From a phage: a stretch of 64,000 nt of DNA. Made by a program: the position numbers and the translations under genes. The stretch is taken from assembly GCA_024449565.1 (NCBI GenBank), contig GCA_024449565.1_4810.1. One strand, 5' to 3'. Positions 1 through 53,424 of this stretch are shown piece by piece. The notes beneath the pieces are model-generated. The model was given only the letters and a program-made list of their open reading frames with translations, did not search any database and was not told where the DNA came from. How positions within the stretch are numbered: the stretch's first letter is position 1; the number at the start of each line of letters is the position of its first letter.

Positions 1-55
1 AAAAAAAATAAAATTAAATTAGATATATAATTTTAAATTAATTTATTTGAATTCC
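1..55. other. AT-rich tract preceding repeat element A (possible DNA-unwinding element)
   Basis: Positions 1-55 are almost entirely A/T; a similar AT-rich tract precedes the second copy of the element near 14900-14960. Confidence 0.35.
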
Positions 56-150
56 TATAAAGTATCGCGGCAACGCGTATCATCCGTATCATCCGTAAGA
101 TTCTTTTGAAAACAACTACTTACTTGATACGGATGATACGTCATTATACG
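56..150. repeat. Iteron-like repeat element A
   Basis: TATAAAGTATCGCGGCAACGCGTATCATCCGTATCATCCGTAAGA (tandem CGTATCATC) followed by inverted copy TACGGATGATACG and CGTCATTATACG; near-identical element at about 14962-15090. Confidence 0.6.
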
Positions 151-9227: not shown

Positions 9228-9235
9228 TTCACTCA

Positions 9236-9260
9236 AGGCGCTGAAAAGCGCCTTTACTTT
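9236..9260 (+). terminator. putative intrinsic terminator
   Basis: AGGCGC-TGAAAA-GCGCCT hairpin followed by a T-rich tract after the tail fiber stop. Confidence 0.4.
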
Positions 9261-9310
9261 ATGCGCTATTAAGTTATACTCATTATACGTTAACAAGTGA
9301 GGTGAATGAA

Positions 9311-11134: not shown

Positions 11135-11755
11135 TGCAAATTTCCTGTGGGTACAAAATAGTACGGTACTGTCTAGGACTTTTTCTTTGAAAAGTTAGTG
11201 GACCAAATGTGTCGTATTTTGATTAGTGTACCGCAAATTCCATCAAGTAGCAAAACGCACCAAAAGACCCATGCCCTAAAAACCACACGAACGCAATAAT
11301 CAATCGCCGTTACAGTTTCCAGCGTTACAATTAGAAAGCGAATGATTCGATGCATAATAATATGAAGCATAATGATTCGAAAGCTAATGGTTGCGCGTAG
11401 GATGATATCGGGAGGGATTATTCGAGATGCGTGTAATTTCGCATGCGTACTATTTTCGGGCGAAGGGTCGGCATATTCTTCGTTTTAGCTCGGAACGAAG
11501 GGAAAGTTTTGCGCCTTTATAAAACAACGACTTACGCGACCCGCCTTAACGGTCCGATATAGGTGTCTATATAAAACAAGGACTTACGCGATGTTCTCCA
11601 TTTAACGTAATACCTGTTATGCGAACTAAGGCGCATCTCGACGAAGATTGTGCGACGACGAAGGGAAGGATAAAGGAGTTTTCGCGTAGGAGCTCATCGA
11701 GATAGGGACGAAGAAAAGCCGCGACTAAGCGCGGCCTATTAGTAACGGAAGGGTA

Positions 11756-12046: not shown

Positions 12047-12153
12047 AATATTCTCCTAGTTAGTCGGGAGGGTAGCGACCTATTCGCTACCTCATCCCCT
12101 CTCGATATAAAACATTATAGTCTTAGTGTACGAAGAAGTAAAGCACTTTTTCG

Positions 12154-12456
12154 TTATTCTGCGATAAAATATTTATAAGCTTTATCGCCTTCTACGTCGA
12201 TATACTCGACGATAATTAACGCTTCGCCGCGCGGCGTAACCGTCTCGATAAGGGTAACGGCTTCGTCGTCGGTCTTCGCGAAGCGGATTGCGCTACGTTC
12301 GGCGTACTTAATATCATCGAAGGAAAGGCCGACGAAAGCGACCGCGCGGACCTTAATAATGGTAGATTCTAGTTCCGCGTTAACGGCAGCGATAAGAGAG
12401 CGAACGGTTAAACGGTCTTCGTCGTAAGTAAGGATAGAAGAGATTAAAGTAGTCAT
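12154..12456 (-). CDS. small acidic protein, paralog family member 2
   Basis: Start trimmed to ATG MTTLISS with GGGAG SD; same N-terminal pattern as neighbours. Confidence 0.45.
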   Translation of the reverse strand: MTTLISSILTYDEDRLTVRSLIAAVNAELESTIIKVRAVAFVGLSFDDIKYAERSAIRFAKTDDEAVTLIETVTPRGEALIIVEYIDVEGDKAYKYFIAE

Positions 12457-12681
12457 AATAAAACTCCCGATGCTAGTAGAAGGAAGGGCCATCACCCGTC
12501 TCGATACAAACAAGTATACGCGAGTGTACGAAGAAGTAAAGAAAAAAGATAAAATAATTTATCTCATTTTTATCGAAAAAGTGCTTTACTTTTTTCTACA
12601 CTATATTATAATGTACTCATATCGGGACGGGATGAGTTAACGAATAGGTCGTTAACGCCCGTCGAGAACTAGGAGTTTAAA

Positions 12682-14802: not shown

Positions 14803-15090
14803 GCGTATCATGACGTATCATCCGTATTGCCGCAAGTCTTTGTTTTTACTTATATCTTACGGATAATACGTATAAATATAAGTTCAGTATAAGTATGAGG
14901 ATGTAGAAAAAAATTAATTTAAATTAATTCAAAATGGAGTTAATTGTTTTTTTCAAAGTTGTATAAAGTATAGCGGCGACGCGTATCATCCGTATCATCC
15001 GTAAGATGTACCATTGAACCCAGTCGCGGCGCACCATAGAAGTGTGTGGAGTGAACTACGGATAGGTCCAAATCTTACGTCATTATACGT
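14803..15090. repeat. Iteron-like repeat region B (homolog of element A)
   Basis: GCGTATCATGACGTATCATCCGTATTGCCGCAAG, inverted TTACGGATAATACG, then TATAAAGTATAGCGGCGACGCGTATCATCCGTATCATCCGTAAGATG (near-identical to 56-100) and CGTCATTATACG; AT-rich tract at about 14897-14961. Confidence 0.6.
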
Positions 15091-19440: not shown

Positions 19441-19479
19441 TCTCCTTTGCTTGATGAACTAAGTATAATACAGGCAAAT

Positions 19480-19508
19480 AAAAAGGCAAGCATTTAGCTC
19501 ACCTTTTT
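19480..19508 (-). terminator. terminator-promoter unit (minus strand)
   Basis: Hairpin AGGUGAGC-UAAAU-GCUUGCCU (two G-U pairs) plus T-run on minus strand; TTGCCT then 16 nt then TATACT follows; 30-bp identical copy at 20733. Confidence 0.5.
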
Positions 19509-19511
19509 GAA

Positions 19512-20731: not shown

Positions 20732-20760
20732 GAAAAGGCAAGCATTTAGCTCACCTTTTT
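20732..20760 (-). terminator. terminator-promoter unit (minus strand), copy 2
   Basis: Same hairpin as at 19480; on minus strand TTGCCT then 17 nt then TATACT follows. Confidence 0.5.
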
Positions 20761-20765
20761 GATAT

Positions 20766-21098
20766 TCATTTTACATAGTGGAGTAGGTCAATCTCTATCT
20801 GTTCACGTGTCCTTGTTATCTTTGTATCACCCGTCCGGTGAGAGAATCGATAGATGGTCAACTCTCCGTCATTTCCTCTGTCAAACTTCATGCTGGCTAG
20901 TCTACAAGCATATATTGCATTAAGCCTTTCGCCATAAGACAGAAGATTGAAGGTCAATACTGTGTTGCCCATTCTTGCATTTTCTTTTATGCACTTCTTT
21001 AAGAAGTAATAAGAATCAGCAAATGCATTGGCCTTCTTCCACACTTCCTTTATCAATCCACGCTCATGCGCGGCGAGTATTTGATCACGGGTCATCAC
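20766..21098 (-). CDS. hypothetical early protein
   Basis: Tiled minus-strand ORF followed by terminator. Confidence 0.45.
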   Translation of the reverse strand: MMTRDQILAAHERGLIKEVWKKANAFADSYYFLKKCIKENARMGNTVLTFNLLSYGERLNAIYACRLASMKFDRGNDGELTIYRFSHRTGDTKITRTREQIEIDLLHYVK

Positions 21099-29745: not shown

Positions 29746-29903
29746 TGTTGACGTAAATTTACGAAAAATAAAACTGAAAATCAGTTTAATTAAAGTGGCA
29801 TTGCCGCCATAGTTTTTAGTTGCTACTGGCGGCGACTGAAGGCATAATTAAGTTATCCCAAACGGGGAATATAAAATAAACTAATTTATTTAAGGACTGT
29901 CAA

Positions 29904-30771: not shown

Positions 30772-30798
30772 GACCCACACTTGATGTGGGTCTTTTTT
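30772..30798 (+). terminator. rho-independent terminator
   Basis: GACCCACAC-TTGA-TGTGGGTC hairpin followed by TTTTTT. Confidence 0.7.
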
Positions 30799-31873: not shown

Positions 31874-31874
31874 T

Positions 31875-31919
31875 TTGCTTTCTGCTTCAATGGGCGTATA
31901 CTTTAATCATTGAAGCAGA
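31875..31919 (+). promoter_or_regulatory. promoter TTTGCT-16-TATACT inside a 12-bp inverted repeat (operator-like)
   Basis: TCTGCTTCAATG (31881-31892) and CATTGAAGCAGA (31908-31919) flank the -10; no T-run, so not a typical terminator. Confidence 0.4.
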
Positions 31920-31939
31920 ACTCATAAGAGGAAACGAAA

Positions 31940-32386
31940 ATGAAACGCATCACTGGAATCGCGCTTGCCGCAACTGCTATTCTCGGAACCATGTATATGG
32001 AAGCGACTGAAGCTGCCATCCGTACTTCCGATTCAATCGCTGTTTACGATTGCGAAGCGATGGACGGCAAGACCGCAGCGACGACTGGCGCAACAATTAC
32101 CACTTACATCGGTGTGAACGAGCAGGAAGGTCTGAATATTCAGATTCAGGGATTCACCGGAAAAGGCGCCAACCGGACTCCGTGGATGCAGCGTTTCACT
32201 TTCGTTCAGCCTCGTTCGACTGGCGACTTTATTAACCTGATTGGTGAAAACCGTTCTGGTGCAGAAATCTTTACCTCAATGAGTTCTAATAATGAACCAA
32301 AGAAAAGTTTTCAGTTGCTTTATAACGCACAATTCGTTTATCATTGCACCTTCTCTGGTGATCAGCAACTAGTGAATTACCGTTAA
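31940..32386 (+). CDS. secreted or periplasmic protein
   Basis: N-terminal signal-peptide-like segment MKRITGIALAATAILGT; AGAGGA SD. Confidence 0.45.
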   Translation: MKRITGIALAATAILGTMYMEATEAAIRTSDSIAVYDCEAMDGKTAATTGATITTYIGVNEQEGLNIQIQGFTGKGANRTPWMQRFTFVQPRSTGDFINLIGENRSGAEIFTSMSSNNEPKKSFQLLYNAQFVYHCTFSGDQQLVNYR

Positions 32387-34078: not shown

Positions 34079-34125
34079 TTTACTTGTGCGTTTCGATGAG
34101 TTATATTTATCTCATCGAAACGAAG
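34079..34125 (+). promoter_or_regulatory. promoter TTTACT-17-TATATT with perfect 12-bp inverted-repeat operator
   Basis: CGTTTCGATGAG (34089-34100) and CTCATCGAAACG (34111-34122) flank the -10; related element at 41010-41055. Confidence 0.5.
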
Positions 34126-34143
34126 TCCAAAAAGGATAAATAA

Positions 34144-34827
34144 ATGAAAAAAGTAATTGTTGTAACTGGCTGCAATTCCGGTCTTGGTAAGTCCATTTTT
34201 GACACCCTTGGCGCTTACGGTCATGAAGTTGTCGGTATTGATTTGGAGAACGGCTATGACATCCGTAACGCGAAACAGATGAAAGAGCTTCTCTCTCAAT
34301 ACGACGTAGAAGGCTTGATCAACTGCGCTGGCGTCAACTCCAACAACTGGTTCGAAGATGTTAACTACGAAGAGTTCAATCGCGTTATGCACACCAACGC
34401 CTTCTCTTTCGTCAACACGACTCAGGCCGCGCTGAAAAGTCTTATTGACAACAAAGGTTTTGTGATCAACATCGTTTCCAACGCTGCGCATATTCCTATG
34501 ACGTCCAGCTTGTGTTATAATGCTTCCAAGGCTGCTGCGCTCATGATTAGCAAGCAGATGGCTCACGAGCTTACGCCTAAATACGGGATCACGGTATTCT
34601 CTATTAGTCCTAACAAGCTACGTGGTACTGGCATGTCCAAACAGATTGAAGATGCTGTTTGCGCGACTCGCGGCTGGACTCCTGAATACGCTGCTGAATA
34701 CCAGAAAAAGGCACTGATGAATGGATTGGAGACTGAGCCGCAAGTAATTGCTGACTTCATTCGCCATATCTTAATTACGGGCGCATGGCGCTTTATGTCT
34801 GGTACTGATATTCCATTTGGGAAATAA
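34144..34827 (+). CDS. short-chain dehydrogenase/reductase (classical SDR)
   Basis: TGCNSGLG cofactor motif, NCAG, and YNASK catalytic Tyr/Lys. Confidence 0.7.
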   Translation: MKKVIVVTGCNSGLGKSIFDTLGAYGHEVVGIDLENGYDIRNAKQMKELLSQYDVEGLINCAGVNSNNWFEDVNYEEFNRVMHTNAFSFVNTTQAALKSLIDNKGFVINIVSNAAHIPMTSSLCYNASKAAALMISKQMAHELTPKYGITVFSISPNKLRGTGMSKQIEDAVCATRGWTPEYAAEYQKKALMNGLETEPQVIADFIRHILITGAWRFMSGTDIPFGK

Positions 34828-41009: not shown

Positions 41010-41055
41010 TTGACTTGTCACGGAAGATGAGTCATAATTACTTCATCGAAACGAA
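41010..41055 (+). promoter_or_regulatory. promoter TTGACT-17-CATAAT with operator-like element
   Basis: Shares GATGAGT ... TCATCGAAACGAA with the 34079 element. Confidence 0.45.
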
Positions 41056-41070
41056 ACAGAGGAATACAAA

Positions 41071-41334
41071 ATGGTACGCATCCTTGAACGTTACAAAAAT
41101 GAATCTACTGGCGCAATCGCTTTCAAACGTCTTTTGGTCAAAGAAATTGACGGTATGTTCCGCGTTGTTAAAGAGTTTGATTATGGCAACGGTGCTGGGG
41201 TGAATACCGTTATTATGCCTGGTATCAAGGCATATAAAACATTAAAAGGCGCTGAGAAGGCTTTGGCGGCTTGGAAGTCTGAACGTTATCAAATGACCCG
41301 TGTTGAAGGTCTAATGCAAGAAGGTAAAATATGA
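41071..41334 (+). CDS. hypothetical protein
   Basis: 87-aa ORF after promoter; AGAGGAA SD. Confidence 0.45.
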   Translation: MVRILERYKNESTGAIAFKRLLVKEIDGMFRVVKEFDYGNGAGVNTVIMPGIKAYKTLKGAEKALAAWKSERYQMTRVEGLMQEGKI

Positions 41335-41582
41335 GCAACAAAGTATTGTTAATTGGTCCGCCAGCTTGCGGCAAAACGACTAGCGCAAAGAATATTGCTG
41401 AAGTCATGGGATTGAATAACATTTACGACATAGGAAAGGGTGGAGAAGACAATTTTAAGTCCGCACTCAAAGATGACAAGGAAGGTCTTTATGTCACTGT
41501 GAAATTACCGCGCGGCATTCGCCGTGAACAATTTGATATTGTAATTGAAGTCAACAGAGGATTTATCGATGTCAGATATTAA
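41331..41582 (+). CDS. small P-loop NTPase-like protein
   Basis: Walker A GPPACGKTT near N-terminus; only 83 aa. Confidence 0.35.
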   Translation: MSNKVLLIGPPACGKTTSAKNIAEVMGLNNIYDIGKGGEDNFKSALKDDKEGLYVTVKLPRGIRREQFDIVIEVNRGFIDVRY

Positions 41583-45207: not shown

Positions 45208-45281
45208 CACACTGGATAAATAATTGTTGCGTATAATCTATCGCGCCGTTTTCTAGAATTTAATATACAGTGTATACATAA

Positions 45282-45309
45282 AGCCGGAAATTTCCGGCTT
45301 TTCTTTTAT
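45282..45309 (+). terminator. rho-independent terminator
   Basis: AGCCGGA-AATT-TCCGGCT hairpin followed by a T-run. Confidence 0.65.
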
Positions 45310-45338
45310 TTACTTTCGGCGTATTTACTTTCAAAACC

Positions 45339-45367
45339 TTGAGCCTATACTATTAATATTCATAATC
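45339..45367 (+). promoter_or_regulatory. sigma70-like promoter TTGAGC-17-ATAATC
   Basis: Hexamers upstream of the 45383 gene. Confidence 0.35.
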
Positions 45368-52642: not shown

Positions 52643-53367
52643 TCTATCATATTCCCAGTTCTGTTTCCAGGCCCGTTACCGATATGCCCGTGAGTGGATA
52701 CATCAATGCCGCCGACCGTTGTGCCAGTCGGAAGCGTTGCCGTCGTTCCTTCTTTGCCTTCTATCCCACCATTGAATGTTGCCTTTCCATTTACTATCAA
52801 TTGTTGATCGATAGTGGTTATCGGGGTCTTGACGTTTACTCCAGCAGACGCAGTTATGTTTATTGAGTCATCGCTTAGTGCAATTCTCACAGCGCCGCTG
52901 AGGGATTGAATTACCATTGACCCTGCATCCTCTCCGCTTATGGTGTATTTTCGGAATACATCCGGTATGAACAGTCCATCAGCGAAAGTTTTTACACGGC
53001 CATTGGTAGGCGCGGTCGGCTTCAATTCTTCAAGGAATGTCGACAACTCGCGGTCGCCAGCGAATATCCAGCCCAAGTCGCCTTCCTTCAAAGGGAAGTT
53101 GATCACGAATCCGCCGCCGCCGATTGCCAGTACCGGAATTGACACCAAAGGTTGACGCTCCACTGGCTTATCATCAAGACTTACGAAATGAATAACAGGT
53201 TTTATGACTGCTAAATTTTTCTTGCGGTCATAAGATATTACTTGCGCAGGAATCATACCATCAGTGGTATACTTGCCACGGTCCAGCATTCCCTGAAGCG
53301 CGGCAAACATACTTGATTTGTCAGTTTGGTTGGGGCTTGTAAGTTGGGTTAACTTTTCTGCCATCAT
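52639..53367 (-). CDS. baseplate protein (spike/gpV-like, tentative)
   Basis: Start trimmed to ATG MMAEKL with AAGGAG SD; Gly-rich C-terminus; position upstream of J-like gene. Confidence 0.4.
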   Translation of the reverse strand: MMAEKLTQLTSPNQTDKSSMFAALQGMLDRGKYTTDGMIPAQVISYDRKKNLAVIKPVIHFVSLDDKPVERQPLVSIPVLAIGGGGFVINFPLKEGDLGWIFAGDRELSTFLEELKPTAPTNGRVKTFADGLFIPDVFRKYTISGEDAGSMVIQSLSGAVRIALSDDSINITASAGVNVKTPITTIDQQLIVNGKATFNGGIEGKEGTTATLPTGTTVGGIDVSTHGHIGNGPGNRTGNMIE

Positions 53368-53414
53368 AGACTCCTTATATCTGATCAACAAATTATAATC
53401 TATAAGGAGTCTAT
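53366..53414 (-). promoter_or_regulatory. 14-bp perfect inverted repeat sequestering the RBS and start codon
   Basis: ATAGACTCCTTATA (53366-53379) and TATAAGGAGTCTAT (53401-53414), 21-nt loop; the 3' arm on the mRNA contains the AAGGAG SD and the first two bases of the ATG. Confidence 0.5.
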
Positions 53415-53424
53415 AAGCAATATT

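What the first reader, a model, noticed from the sequence alone, without database searches (positions are those of the whole stretch)
34079..34125. Promoter with perfect 12-bp inverted-repeat operator, with a related copy upstream of the 41071 gene
CGTTTCGATGAG and CTCATCGAAACG flank the TATATT -10 element exactly. The promoter at 41010-41055 shares GATGAGT ... TCATCGAAACGAA. A third promoter at 31875-31919 has a different 12-bp inverted repeat around its -10. This points to operator-controlled middle promoters bound by one or more phage regulators.
Basis: seen in the sequence. Interest (0 to 1): 0.5.

Follow-up and report, generated by a model that had tools for sequence, protein, structure and literature searches.

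The report
Phage promoters buried inside hairpin-forming repeats
Two host-type promoters inside the DNA-replication operon of this E. coli phage (a Wifcevirus) are each wrapped in a perfect 12-13 bp inverted repeat; the repeat looks selected to form an RNA hairpin in read-through transcripts rather than to bind a repressor, but its function is unproven.

Summary
The promoter at 34079-34107 reads TTTACT-17-TATATT. Its -10 lies in the 10-nt loop of a perfect 12-bp inverted repeat (34089-34100 / 34111-34122). The promoter at 31874 has a different perfect 13-bp repeat around its -10. The promoter at 41010 is a colinear paralogue that keeps GATGAGT and TCATCGAAACGAA in the same register but has almost no dyad. 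Two perfect repeats of 12 bp or more were found against 0.087 expected. The arms are as constrained across 14 Wifcevirus genomes as non-synonymous sites.

The operator reading is not supported.
- The arm sequences are unrelated to each other, and no further copy exists in the genome.
- No DNA-binding protein was detected.
- Orthologous promoters in other genera keep the -35, the -10 and the leader but carry different small hairpins in the spacer.
- Imperfect stems fold better on the sense strand.
[quoted passage not shown] It recurs in at least four lineages with unrelated arms, as in phage T4 gene e.

At 34079 and 31874 the ribosome-binding site is not sequestered, so the precise role is unknown. 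A decay barrier, a processing site or insulation of read-through RNA are candidates. I rate this a new variant of a known kind, of moderate interest.

The parts
34079..34084 (+). -35 hexamer TTTACT of the promoter upstream of the FabG-like reductase gene
   Evidence: It aligns with TTGACT / TTGACG of the orthologous promoters in MyoSmar and Kyle and of the paralogue at 41010.
34089..34100 (+). Left arm CGTTTCGATGAG, lying inside the 17-bp promoter spacer. It is the lineage-specific arm, newly complementary to the leader.
   Evidence: The spacer differs in the Kyle and MyoSmar orthologues. Together with the right arm, 2 of 24 arm positions vary in 14 genomes.
34102..34107 (+). -10 hexamer TATATT, in the loop of the hairpin
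   Evidence: The dyad axis is at 34105.5.
34111..34122 (+). Right arm CTCATCGAAACG, which is the start of the transcribed leader. The start site is predicted near A34114, by inference from the position of the -10.
   Evidence: The leader sequence is ancestral: Kyle has TATCTCATCTTAAACGAA and MyoSmar has ATATCTAATTTCAACGAAGT. The only arm variants are C-to-T changes at 34116 and 34121, which give G.U pairs in the sense RNA.
34131..34146 (+). Ribosome-binding site AAGGA and the ATG (34144) of the FabG-like short-chain dehydrogenase gene (34144-34827). It lies outside the hairpin.
   Evidence: adh_short, E = 1e-31. The mean unpaired probability of the site is 0.74 in read-through RNA and 0.71 in promoter-initiated RNA.
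41010..41055 (+). Paralogous promoter TTGACT-17-CATAAT with GATGAGT (41026-41032) and TCATCGAAACGAA (41043-41055). The dyad is degenerate. A weak hairpin with G.U pairs links the -35 to the spacer (GACTTGTC / GATGAGTC). It drives a genus-specific 87-aa gene (41071-41334).
   Evidence: (z = -1.5).
31874..31902 (+). Promoter TTTGCT-17-TATACT upstream of a genus-specific 148-aa gene whose product has a signal-peptide-like N-terminus (31940-32386)
   Evidence: TTGCTTTCTGCT is shared with the syntenic Kyle promoter.
31880..31920 (+). Perfect 13-bp inverted repeat TTCTGCTTCAATG / CATTGAAGCAGAA with a 15-nt loop that holds the -10
   Evidence: (z = -4.3). None of 26 arm positions varies in 14 genomes.
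53366..53420 (-). Third promoter in a hairpin: TTGCTT-17-TATAAT. The arms are 14 bp (ATAGACTCCTTATA / TATAAGGAGTCTAT). [quoted passage not shown]
   Evidence: site unpaired 0.06 in read-through RNA against 0.63 in promoter-initiated RNA; z = -6.1. The same architecture, with unrelated arms, occurs in MyoSmar, MTx and IMG/VR contigs.

Best explanation
The window comes from a Wifcevirus, an E. coli myovirus of the family Lindbergviridae. Positions 34079-34122 form a composite element inside a long rightward operon that carries replication and nucleotide-metabolism genes.

1. The element is an internal sigma-70-type promoter, TTTACT-17-TATATT, that re-initiates transcription just upstream of the FabG-like gene.
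2. Its two sequence-unconstrained parts have been selected to be complementary. These are the spacer and the first roughly 10 transcribed bases. RNA that reads through from the upstream genes (thyX, polynucleotide kinase) therefore folds into a stable 12-bp hairpin of about -19 kcal/mol with the -10 in its loop. RNA started at the promoter itself, near A34114, lacks the 5' arm and stays unfolded.
3. The repeat therefore acts on RNA, not as a protein operator. It marks, or treats differently, the two classes of transcript.

In the sister element at 53366-53420 (minus strand) the consequence is clear. [quoted passage not shown]

At 34079 and 31874 the hairpin ends 20-22 nt before the AUG and leaves the ribosome-binding site free. 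The most likely roles there are a barrier to 3' exonucleases, a processing site that partitions the operon, or insulation of the downstream cistron.

Shown here: the anatomy, the non-randomness, the purifying selection, the homology of the promoters, the asymmetry between strands, and the contrast in site accessibility.

Inferred: promoter activity, the transcription start site, read-through transcription, and the molecular role of the hairpin.
For: **Identity of the genome.** The window is 95-97% identical to the Wifcevirus phages TH35, FEC19 and WFH.

**The repeats are not chance.** Two perfect repeats of 12 bp or more were found against 0.087 expected. Fold z-scores are -5.8 and -4.3.

**Only three promoters are unusual.** Of 19 plausible sigma-70-like promoters in the window, only 31874, 34079 and 53420 (minus strand) are folding outliers, with z of -4.2, -5.0 and -6.1. 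All the others lie between -1.6 and +1.7.

**The three share one geometry but no sequence.** In each, the 5' arm lies in the spacer, the -10 in the loop and the 3' arm in the leader.

**Strong constraint.** Arm positions vary at 2 of 24 and 0 of 26 sites in 14 genomes, against 37-47% at third codon positions.

**Complementarity was built onto homologous promoters.**
- The Kyle and MyoSmar FabG promoters keep the -35, the -10 and the leader (TATCTCATC..AAACGAA) but have a different spacer with its own small hairpin.
- At 31874 it is the spacer that is ancestral and the leader arm that is new.

**Strand asymmetry.**
- Wherever a stem is imperfect, the sense strand is 2-6.8 kcal/mol more stable, and never the reverse.
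- Both arm variants at 34079 give G.U pairs in the sense strand.
- Between MTx and MyoSmar, three of four arm substitutions give G.U in the sense strand. In addition, a matched insertion of G in one arm and C in the other preserves a stem.

**Read-through is plausible.** No terminator-like site lies between the strong terminators at 30772 and 35590.

[quoted passage not shown] The architecture recurs with unrelated arms in at least four lineages. T4 genes e, soc, 49 and I-TevI work this way (PMC3014915).

**Host-type promoters are used in this family.** Sigma-70-like promoters have been mapped and validated in the related phage 14-1 (PMC10914365).
Against: - At 34079, 31874 and 41010 the hairpin does not change the accessibility of the ribosome-binding site (0.74 against 0.71, 0.70 against 0.74, 0.55 against 0.52). 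The mechanism established for T4 and for the baseplate gene does not transfer, and the proposed role is generic.
- No U-tract follows either hairpin, so termination is not expected.
- Stems of 12-13 bp are short for RNase III.
- There is no true compensatory (double) substitution within Wifcevirus, because the genus is too uniform.
- The strand-asymmetry tally is small and partly ascertained on the sense strand. One MTx mismatch favours the antisense strand.
- The 41010 promoter keeps the right-arm sequence without its partner. This shows that sequence, and not only pairing, is conserved in the leader.
- No transcript data exist for this genus.
Confidence: 0.45

Rival explanations
1. This is an operator. 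A dimeric DNA-binding protein from the phage or the host binds the two 12-bp half-sites that flank the -10 and occludes RNA polymerase. The 41010 promoter is a weaker site for the same protein, and 31874 is the site for a second protein.
For: - The dyad is centred on the -10.
- The arms are strongly conserved.
- The 41010 promoter keeps TCATCGAAACGAA and the inner GATGAG half in the same register without full complementarity. This is what a weaker operator would look like.
- The half-site centres are 22 bp apart, about two helical turns.
- Most early proteins are ORFans that could hide a novel DNA-binding fold.
- Anti-CRISPR promoters controlled by Aca proteins are a precedent for repeats over phage promoters (PMC12658196, listed).
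Against: - The two perfect repeats are unrelated and have different geometry: loop 10 against 15, and centres 22 against 28 bp apart.
- No other copy exists in a complete Wifcevirus genome.
- Perfect symmetry over 12-14 bp is unusual for protein operators and typical of selection for base pairing (my own knowledge).
- No helix-turn-helix, ribbon-helix-helix or other DNA-binding Pfam domain was found in 40 ORFs.
- The 87-aa product of the 41010 operon gives a low-confidence beta-rich model with no fold match.
- The similarity between 34079 and 41010 runs from the -35 to +13, which indicates paralogy.
- Sister genera carry different hairpins in the same promoters.
- There is no similar site in E. 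coli genomes at BLAST sensitivity.
- Imperfect stems favour the sense strand.
Confidence: 0.2
2. This is a DNA-level structural switch. In negatively supercoiled or transiently single-stranded phage DNA the repeat extrudes as a cruciform or hairpin with the -10 in the loop. This either blocks or pre-melts the promoter and so ties its activity to superhelicity or replication.
For: - The repeats are perfect, with AT-rich centres exactly on the -10.
- The single-stranded DNA folds are -12.7 and -11.9 kcal/mol, with z of -7.2 and -6.1.
- The arm length equals that of classic cruciform-forming repeats, and an engineered E. coli promoter has been regulated by cruciform extrusion at the -10 (Horwitz and Loeb 1988; my own knowledge, not checked here).
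Against: - Central spacers of 10 and 15 nt strongly disfavour extrusion (established knowledge).
- A cruciform would be indifferent to strand, yet the imperfect relatives favour the sense strand.
- The related elements in other genera are small hairpins confined to the spacer, or hairpins that sequester a ribosome-binding site. These make sense as RNA.
Confidence: 0.1
3. The hairpin is a non-canonical attenuator or terminator for upstream transcription that overlaps the restart promoter. This would be a compact terminator-promoter cassette, like the PeSL cassettes of T4-type phages, with termination possibly assisted by a factor.
For: - Terminator-promoter composites are common in this genome. 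For example, at 9235-9290 the U-tract of a terminator forms the -35. Others lie at 19441-19511 on the minus strand and at 45280-45360.
- Sister genera have GC-rich hairpins in the spacer followed by the AU-rich -10.
- PeSL cassettes combine sigma-70 promoters and stem-loops and flank variable genes (PMC2839356).
- The genes downstream of 31874 and 41010 are specific to the genus.
Against: - No U-tract follows the stems at 34122 or 31920.
- The stems are only 38-50% GC and have large loops.
- The copies are too few and too divergent to act as recombination cassettes.
Confidence: 0.12
4. The repeat has no function of its own. It is a quasi-palindrome perfected by template-switch mutation from the pre-existing 6-bp GATGAG / CTCATC complementarity, and it persists only because the promoter region as a whole is conserved.
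For: - The 41010 paralogue shows the 5-6 bp seed without the extension.
- The seven clustered differences in the spacer (CACGGAA against GCGTTTC) could arise in a single templated event (mechanism from my own knowledge).
- The whole intergenic region is conserved, not only the arms.
Against: - The same thing happened independently at 31874 and at 53366-53420, and in other genera.
- Arm variability is 2 of 50 positions, against about 40% at neutral sites, and both changes preserve pairing.
- Only 3 of 19 promoters are affected, and all three have one geometry.
Confidence: 0.08

Closest known systems
Phage T4 genes e, soc, 49 and I-TevI: a promoter located in the 5' strand of an RNA hairpin
   Same: The promoter lies within the sequence that encodes the 5' arm. 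Long read-through transcripts therefore fold, while transcripts started at the internal promoter cannot (PMC3014915). The element at 53366-53420 on the minus strand matches fully.
   Different: At 34079 and 31874 the hairpin does not include the Shine-Dalgarno sequence or the AUG, and predicted accessibility is unchanged. The promoters here are sigma-70-type, not T4 late (gp55) promoters. No experimental data exist.
PeSL cassettes (early promoter plus stem-loop) of T4-type phages
   Same: These are intergenic composites of a strong sigma-70-like promoter and a stem-loop, repeated as related copies next to variable accessory genes (PMC2839356). The 34079 and 41010 promoters are paralogues, and the genes downstream of 31874 and 41010 are lineage-specific.
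   Different: In a PeSL the GC-rich stem-loop is adjacent to the promoter and acts as a terminator. Here the stem spans the -10, is AT-richer and has no U-tract. There are only two related copies.
Repressor operators that overlap phage promoters (lambda, P22 Arc/Mnt, Aca-controlled anti-CRISPR promoters)
   Same: There is dyad symmetry over the core promoter, and a second promoter carries a partial copy.
   Different: Symmetry is perfect over 12-14 bp. The sequence is unique at each promoter. No cognate DNA-binding protein was found, and stem imperfections are strand-biased.
Intercistronic stabiliser hairpins (REP-type) and RNase III sites in polycistronic phage and bacterial mRNAs
   Same: A stable hairpin without a U-tract lies between cistrons of one operon, just after a stop codon.
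   Different: The hairpin is embedded in a promoter. The stems are shorter than typical RNase III substrates. This comparison rests on my own knowledge and was not tested.
Hairpin promoters of the phage N4 virion RNA polymerase
   Same: The promoter is associated with a DNA hairpin.
   Different: The N4 hairpins have stems of 5-7 bp and 3-nt loops and are read by a virion RNA polymerase (my own knowledge; the review PMC4496689 is listed). Here the stems are 12-13 bp, the loops 10-15 nt, sigma-70 hexamers are present, and no phage RNA polymerase is annotated.

Membership tests
Repressor operator overlapping a promoter | Dyad-symmetric site over the core promoter | tested here: met
   The dyad axis lies within 1 bp of the centre of the -10 at 34079 and at 31874.
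Repressor operator overlapping a promoter | The same recognition sequence recurs at co-regulated promoters | tested here: inconclusive
   There is one full site and one site of about one and a half half-sites (41010). The 31874 repeat is unrelated. No other copy exists in the window or in a complete relative.
Repressor operator overlapping a promoter | A cognate sequence-specific DNA-binding protein is encoded by the phage or the host | tested here: inconclusive
   No DNA-binding Pfam domain was found in 40 ORFs. No regulator is annotated in Bas99. The model of the 87-aa protein has a pLDDT of 63.6 and no fold match. ORFans could still bind DNA.
Repressor operator overlapping a promoter | Protein binding represses the promoter | not testable with these tools
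   This needs gel-shift, footprinting or reporter assays.
T4 gene e-type promoter-in-hairpin translational control | The internal promoter is placed so that its transcripts lack the 5' arm | tested here: met
   The 5' arm lies in the spacer and the start site is predicted in the loop or the 3' arm, for 34079, 31874 and 53420 on the minus strand. The start site is inferred from the position of the -10.
T4 gene e-type promoter-in-hairpin translational control | The hairpin sequesters the Shine-Dalgarno sequence or the AUG in read-through RNA | tested here: not met
   Accessibility of the site is unchanged at 34079, 31874 and 41010. The feature is met only by the separate element at 53366-53420 on the minus strand, where the values are 0.06 against 0.63.
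T4 gene e-type promoter-in-hairpin translational control | Upstream transcripts read through the element | tested here: inconclusive
   No terminator-like site lies between 30792 and 35590. No transcript data exist.
PeSL promoter/stem-loop cassette | Intergenic sigma-70-like promoter combined with a stem-loop | tested here: met
PeSL promoter/stem-loop cassette | The stem-loop is a GC-rich terminator adjacent to the promoter | tested here: not met
   The stem spans the -10, is 38-50% GC and has no U-tract.
PeSL promoter/stem-loop cassette | Many near-identical copies flank variable ORFans and mediate recombination | tested here: inconclusive
   There are two paralogous copies, 33 of 46 positions identical by eye in the gap-free alignment. 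The downstream genes are genus-specific. No recombination junctions were examined.
Intrinsic terminator | GC-rich stem followed directly by a U-tract | tested here: not met
   The stems are followed by AAGTCCAAAAAGG and CTCATAAGAGG, and neither was called by the terminator scan.
Cruciform-regulated promoter | Perfect inverted repeat centred on the -10 | tested here: met
Cruciform-regulated promoter | Short central spacer that permits extrusion, and dependence on supercoiling | not testable with these tools
   The spacers are 10 and 15 nt, which is unfavourable. Extrusion must be probed experimentally.

The most novel reading that the evidence does not exclude
Wifcevirus and its relatives may use a general regulatory device not yet described. 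A subset of host-type promoters is built into long perfect hairpins, so that each gene is read out differently depending on where its transcript started. At 34079 and 41010, the shared single-stranded 5' leader AUCGAAACGAA, exposed only on promoter-initiated RNA, would be the recognition site for a phage post-transcriptional regulator or nuclease. Alternatively, the hairpin in DNA form would be read by a structure-specific factor that switches these promoters during infection.
Probability: 0.12. Interest if true: 0.65.

Novelty: new variant of a known kind. Interest (0 to 1): 0.38.

Why it matters
Wifcevirus phages are little studied. They are reported to replicate unusually fast and are distant relatives of the Pseudomonas Pbunavirus phages, which are among those most used for personalised phage therapy (bioRxiv 10.1101/2024.09.12.612763). 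Nothing is published on their gene regulation in the library searched.

The analysis suggests that this phage family repeatedly embeds host-type promoters in hairpins. For the baseplate-spike gene this gives a clear and testable switch of the T4 gene e kind, conserved by whole-arm covariation across genera. For the two replication-module promoters in the finding it defines a compact element under strong constraint, and the experiments that would separate an RNA role from a repressor operator are simple.

The elements are also practical parts for engineering. They are short, strong-looking E. coli promoters with a built-in structure that depends on transcript context.

Tried and rejected
- **Host operator.** BLAST of the 52-bp element against 5,426 E. 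coli genomes gave no match. The test is weak for so short a query.
- **Phage regulator.** Pfam scans of 40 ORFs found no DNA-binding domain. A single-sequence AlphaFold model of the 87-aa product of the 41010 operon had a pLDDT of 63.6, and a Foldseek search of the PDB gave nothing at E <= 0.001. This is uninformative.
- **Known RNA family or tRNA.** None was found in the window.
- **More sequence variants.** The metagenome and IMG/VR pattern scans used a pattern that was too loose (18 AT-rich specified bases). They returned chance hits plus the four Wifcevirus contigs already known, so the single metagenome scan was wasted.
- **Translational control.** Sequestration of the ribosome-binding site at 34079, 31874 and 41010 is rejected by the accessibility calculation.
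- **Intrinsic terminator.** Rejected because there is no U-tract.
- **A MyoSmar example.** The repeat at L031 14894-14931 first looked like another promoter with its -10 in a hairpin loop. In MTx the -10 is lost while the stem is kept through a compensatory G/C insertion, and a conserved promoter lies downstream. It is better read as an intercistronic hairpin whose AT-rich loop mimics a -10.
- **T4 MotA-box middle promoters.** I considered this because of the TTTGCTTT motifs. The spacing fits a sigma-70 -35 element, and no Pfam family at all was matched among the small early ORFs scanned, so no MotA or AsiA homologue was seen.
- **Supplementary start-site tables for phage 14-1.** These are not held in the library.
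Full report
**What the window is.** The region is 95-97% identical to Escherichia phages TH35, FEC19, WFH and other members of the genus Wifcevirus. The newest record places the genus in the family Lindbergviridae. These are lytic myoviruses of about 68 kb, distantly related to the Pseudomonas Pbunavirus phages (bioRxiv 10.1101/2024.09.12.612763). The finding lies in a block of rightward genes for replication and nucleotide metabolism, at about 28.2-46.2 kb.

**Check of the observation.**
- TTTACT (34079-84), a 17-bp spacer and TATATT (34102-07) make a promoter-like site. It lies in the 65-bp gap between the polynucleotide kinase gene (stop codon at 34076-78) and a FabG-like short-chain dehydrogenase gene (ATG at 34144; adh_short, E = 1e-31).
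- CGTTTCGATGAG (34089-34100) and CTCATCGAAACG (34111-34122) are perfectly complementary, with a 10-nt loop.
- The site at 31874 is TTTGCT-17-TATACT. It has a perfect 13-bp repeat, not 12 bp (31880-92 / 31908-20, loop 15).
- The site at 41010 is TTGACT-17-CATAAT. It shares GATGAGT and TCATCGAAACGAA with 34079 in the same register.
- In both perfect repeats the dyad axis falls within 1 bp of the centre of the -10.
- Two perfect repeats of 12 bp or more with loops of 3-16 nt were found. The mean of 300 dinucleotide-preserving shuffles is 0.087, and 1.3% of shuffles have two or more.
- RNA folds of the two gaps are -22.1 and -20.4 kcal/mol, with z of -5.8 and -4.3.

**Are these promoters?** Only sequence evidence is available, but it is consistent.
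- I aligned 19 plausible sigma-70-like promoters of the window, mostly TTTGCT, TTTACT or TTGACT, then 16-18 bp, then TATAnT, placed directly upstream of genes.
- Across 14 Wifcevirus genomes the three intergenic regions vary at 8-9% of sites. Third codon positions of the flanking genes vary at 21-47% (37-47% in all but the short 87-aa gene). The -35 and -10 hexamers of 34079 vary at 1 of 12 positions.
- The kinase-FabG gap of Pantoea phage Kyle and of Serratia phage MyoSmar holds an aligned promoter: TTGACG-17-TATTCT and TTGACT-17-GATAAT.
- More distant relatives have the two genes abutting with no promoter.
- In the same family, phage 14-1 has 26 mapped sigma-70-like promoters, several of them active in E. 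coli (PMC10914365).

**Where the complementarity came from.**
- Alignment A1 shows that the leader after the -10 is ancestral. Wifcevirus has TATCTCATCGAAACGAAGT, Kyle has TATCTCATCTTAAACGAA and MyoSmar has ATATCTAATTTCAACGAAGT.
- The spacer differs in each genus. In Kyle and MyoSmar it carries its own small hairpin: ACGCCTCT / AGGGGCGT, and GGCCA-AGGA-TGGCC.
- In Wifcevirus the spacer has instead become complementary to the leader.
- The 41010 promoter is colinear with 34079 from the -35 to +13, without gaps. It is a paralogue with the older type of spacer (GACTTGTC-ACGGAA-GATGAGTC, with G.U pairs). This explains the 'related copy' without invoking a shared operator.
- At 31874 the situation is reversed. 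The spacer TTGCTTTCTGCT.. is shared with the syntenic Kyle promoter, whose hairpin GCTCA-AGGA-TGAGC lies in the spacer. The leader arm is the new one.
- The genes downstream of these syntenic promoters are unrelated. The 148-aa and 87-aa genes were found only in Wifcevirus contigs.
- Complementarity spanning the -10 was therefore built twice, independently, onto pre-existing promoters. It has since been held almost invariant: 2 of 24 and 0 of 26 arm positions vary.

**A third element that shows what such a design can do.**
- The longest short-range repeat inside a gene block is at 53366-53414 (14 bp).
- On the minus strand it reads TTGCTT, then ATAGACTCCTTATAGAT, then TATAAT, then ttgttgatcaga, then TATAAGGAGTCTAT, then G and ATG. 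[quoted passage not shown]
- The mean unpaired probability of the -14 to +3 region is 0.06 in read-through RNA and 0.63 in RNA started at the embedded promoter.
- The same arrangement sits upstream of the baseplate-spike gene in other lineages, with completely different arm sequences:
  - MyoSmar and MTx have arms of 14-17 bp, TCGCCATTATAATA...
  - IMG/VR contigs L199 and L200 have 13-bp arms, ATCTCTCCCGGTG, with TATAAT in the loop and GGAGAG in the 3' arm.
  - Contigs L198 and L201, and contig L202, show the same design.
- This is the documented logic of T4 genes e, soc, 49 and I-TevI (PMC3014915).
- Of the 19 promoters, only 31874, 34079 and 53420 (minus strand) are folding outliers, with z of -4.2, -5.0 and -6.1. 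The rest lie between -1.6 and +1.7.

**RNA or DNA, structure or sequence?** Several lines favour a structure formed by the sense strand.
- The arms of the three elements are unrelated, but their geometry is the same.
- Perfect symmetry over 12-14 bp is typical of selection for pairing.
- In every hairpin with an imperfect stem, in this window and in three other genera, the sense strand is 2-6.8 kcal/mol more stable than the antisense strand, and never the reverse.
- The only two arm substitutions at 34079 are C-to-T changes that give G.U pairs in the sense strand.
- Between MTx and MyoSmar, three of four arm substitutions give G.U in the sense strand. One stem gained a matched G in one arm and C in the other.

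These tallies are small and partly ascertained on the sense strand, so I treat them as suggestive only.

**What does not fit.**
- At 34079, 31874 and 41010 the hairpin ends 20-22 nt upstream of the AUG. The predicted accessibility of the ribosome-binding site is the same in both transcript classes. The T4-type mechanism is therefore not what these two elements do.
- They have no U-tract, and the stems are short for RNase III.
- No terminator-like site lies between the strong terminators at 30772 and 35590. The hairpins would therefore sit inside a long transcript and divide it into three segments, each with its own promoter.
- The most economical reading is an intercistronic hairpin overlaid on a restart promoter in a very tight gap. 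It could be a barrier to 3' exonucleases, a processing site or an insulator.
- The spacer and the leader are the only promoter parts free to evolve complementarity. That automatically places the -10 in the loop.
- This last step is inference.

**The operator hypothesis.** It cannot be excluded, but the evidence is against it.
- It would need a separate protein for each repeat.
- The 34079 motif has no further copy in the window or in a complete relative.
- No DNA-binding domain was found in 40 ORFs, and none is annotated in the curated Bas99 genome.
- The 87-aa protein encoded behind 41010 gave an uninformative model.
- No similar site exists in E. coli genomes at BLAST sensitivity.
- In its favour, the right-arm sequence is conserved at 41010 without its partner. 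Sequence as well as pairing therefore matters in the leader.

**Other rivals.**
- A DNA cruciform is disfavoured by the 10-15 nt central spacers and by the strand bias.
- A neutral quasi-palindrome is disfavoured by independent recurrence and by the strength of the constraint.

**Comparison with known systems and novelty.**
- The element works most like the T4 promoter-in-hairpin design. However, it fails that family's defining test, sequestration of the translation start.
- It resembles the PeSL promoter/stem-loop cassettes (PMC2839356). However, the stem spans the -10 and is not a terminator.
- No description of promoters or hairpins in Wifcevirus was found.
- I class it as a new variant of a known kind, of moderate interest.
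- The baseplate-spike element is a well-supported new member of the T4 gene e class.

Noticed in passing
window 53366-53420 (minus strand); L031 38132-38182; L218 630-680; L199/L200 about 510-590: [quoted passage not shown] The predicted site is 0.06 unpaired in read-through RNA and 0.63 unpaired in promoter-initiated RNA. The same architecture, with unrelated arms, occurs in at least four lineages. This is a candidate translational switch of the T4 gene e type.
   Followed up: yes
window 2-101 and 14907-15007; inverted repeat 76-140: An element of about 100 bp occurs twice at 79% identity. It has an AT-rich stretch, then TATAAAGTAT, then GCGGC.ACGCGTATCATCCGTATCATCCGTAAGAT. The first copy is part of a perfect 16-bp inverted repeat, CGTATCATCCGTATCA / TGATACGGATGATACG, with a 33-nt loop. 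It could be a phage-specific promoter, an origin or a boundary of the terminal repeat (WFC and WFH have terminal repeats of about 3.7 kb).
   Followed up: partly
window 12047-12680 (hairpins 12071-12091 and 12636-12656): Two divergent, paralogous promoters (gtgcTTTACT..TATAAT) are each followed by a leader hairpin with the same loop, ATAGG, and compensating stem differences (GGTAGCGA/TCGCTACC against GTTAACGA/TCGTTAAC). These may be a conserved 5'-UTR regulatory RNA motif.
   Followed up: no
window 11371-11755: This 385-bp stretch has no ORF, tRNA or Rfam match. It lies between leftward genes and contains the direct repeat TATAAAACAA(C/G)GACTTACGCGA.
   Followed up: no
window 41339-41575 (ORF 41331-41582): A 237-nt insertion encodes an 83-aa protein with a P-loop (Walker A) motif. 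It lies between the 87-aa gene and the DUF7307 gene. It is absent from WFH, TH35 and FEC19 and present at 71% identity in TH32, so it is a variable accessory gene and not a frameshift.
   Followed up: partly
window 9235-9290; 19441-19511 and about 20741-20800 (minus strand); 45280-45360: These are terminator-promoter composites in which the 3' arm and U-tract of an intrinsic terminator run into, or form, the -35 hexamer of the next promoter. The two minus-strand copies share AGGTGAGCTAAATGCTTGCCTTTT.
   Followed up: partly
window 29795-29850: Two mutually exclusive hairpins overlap the -35 of the TTGCTA-17-CATAAT promoter: GTGGCattGCCGC followed by a T-run, and GCCGCCA..17 nt..TGGCGGC. This looks like an attenuator.
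   Followed up: no
L022-L027 (IMG/VR contigs), upstream of the FabG-like gene: In more distant relatives the polynucleotide kinase and FabG-like genes abut with no intergenic promoter. FabG is therefore an old partner of the kinase gene rather than a recent 'moron', and the promoter was inserted later.
   Followed up: partly
L014/L031, L015, L033 (MyoSmar, Salmonella phage PCSE1, Kyle): Many promoters in the sister genera carry a small hairpin inside the 17-bp spacer. It has a recurrent CA-NGGA-TG core and covarying stems: GCTCA/TGAGC, GGCCA/TGGCC, GGGCAA/TTGCCC.
   Followed up: partly
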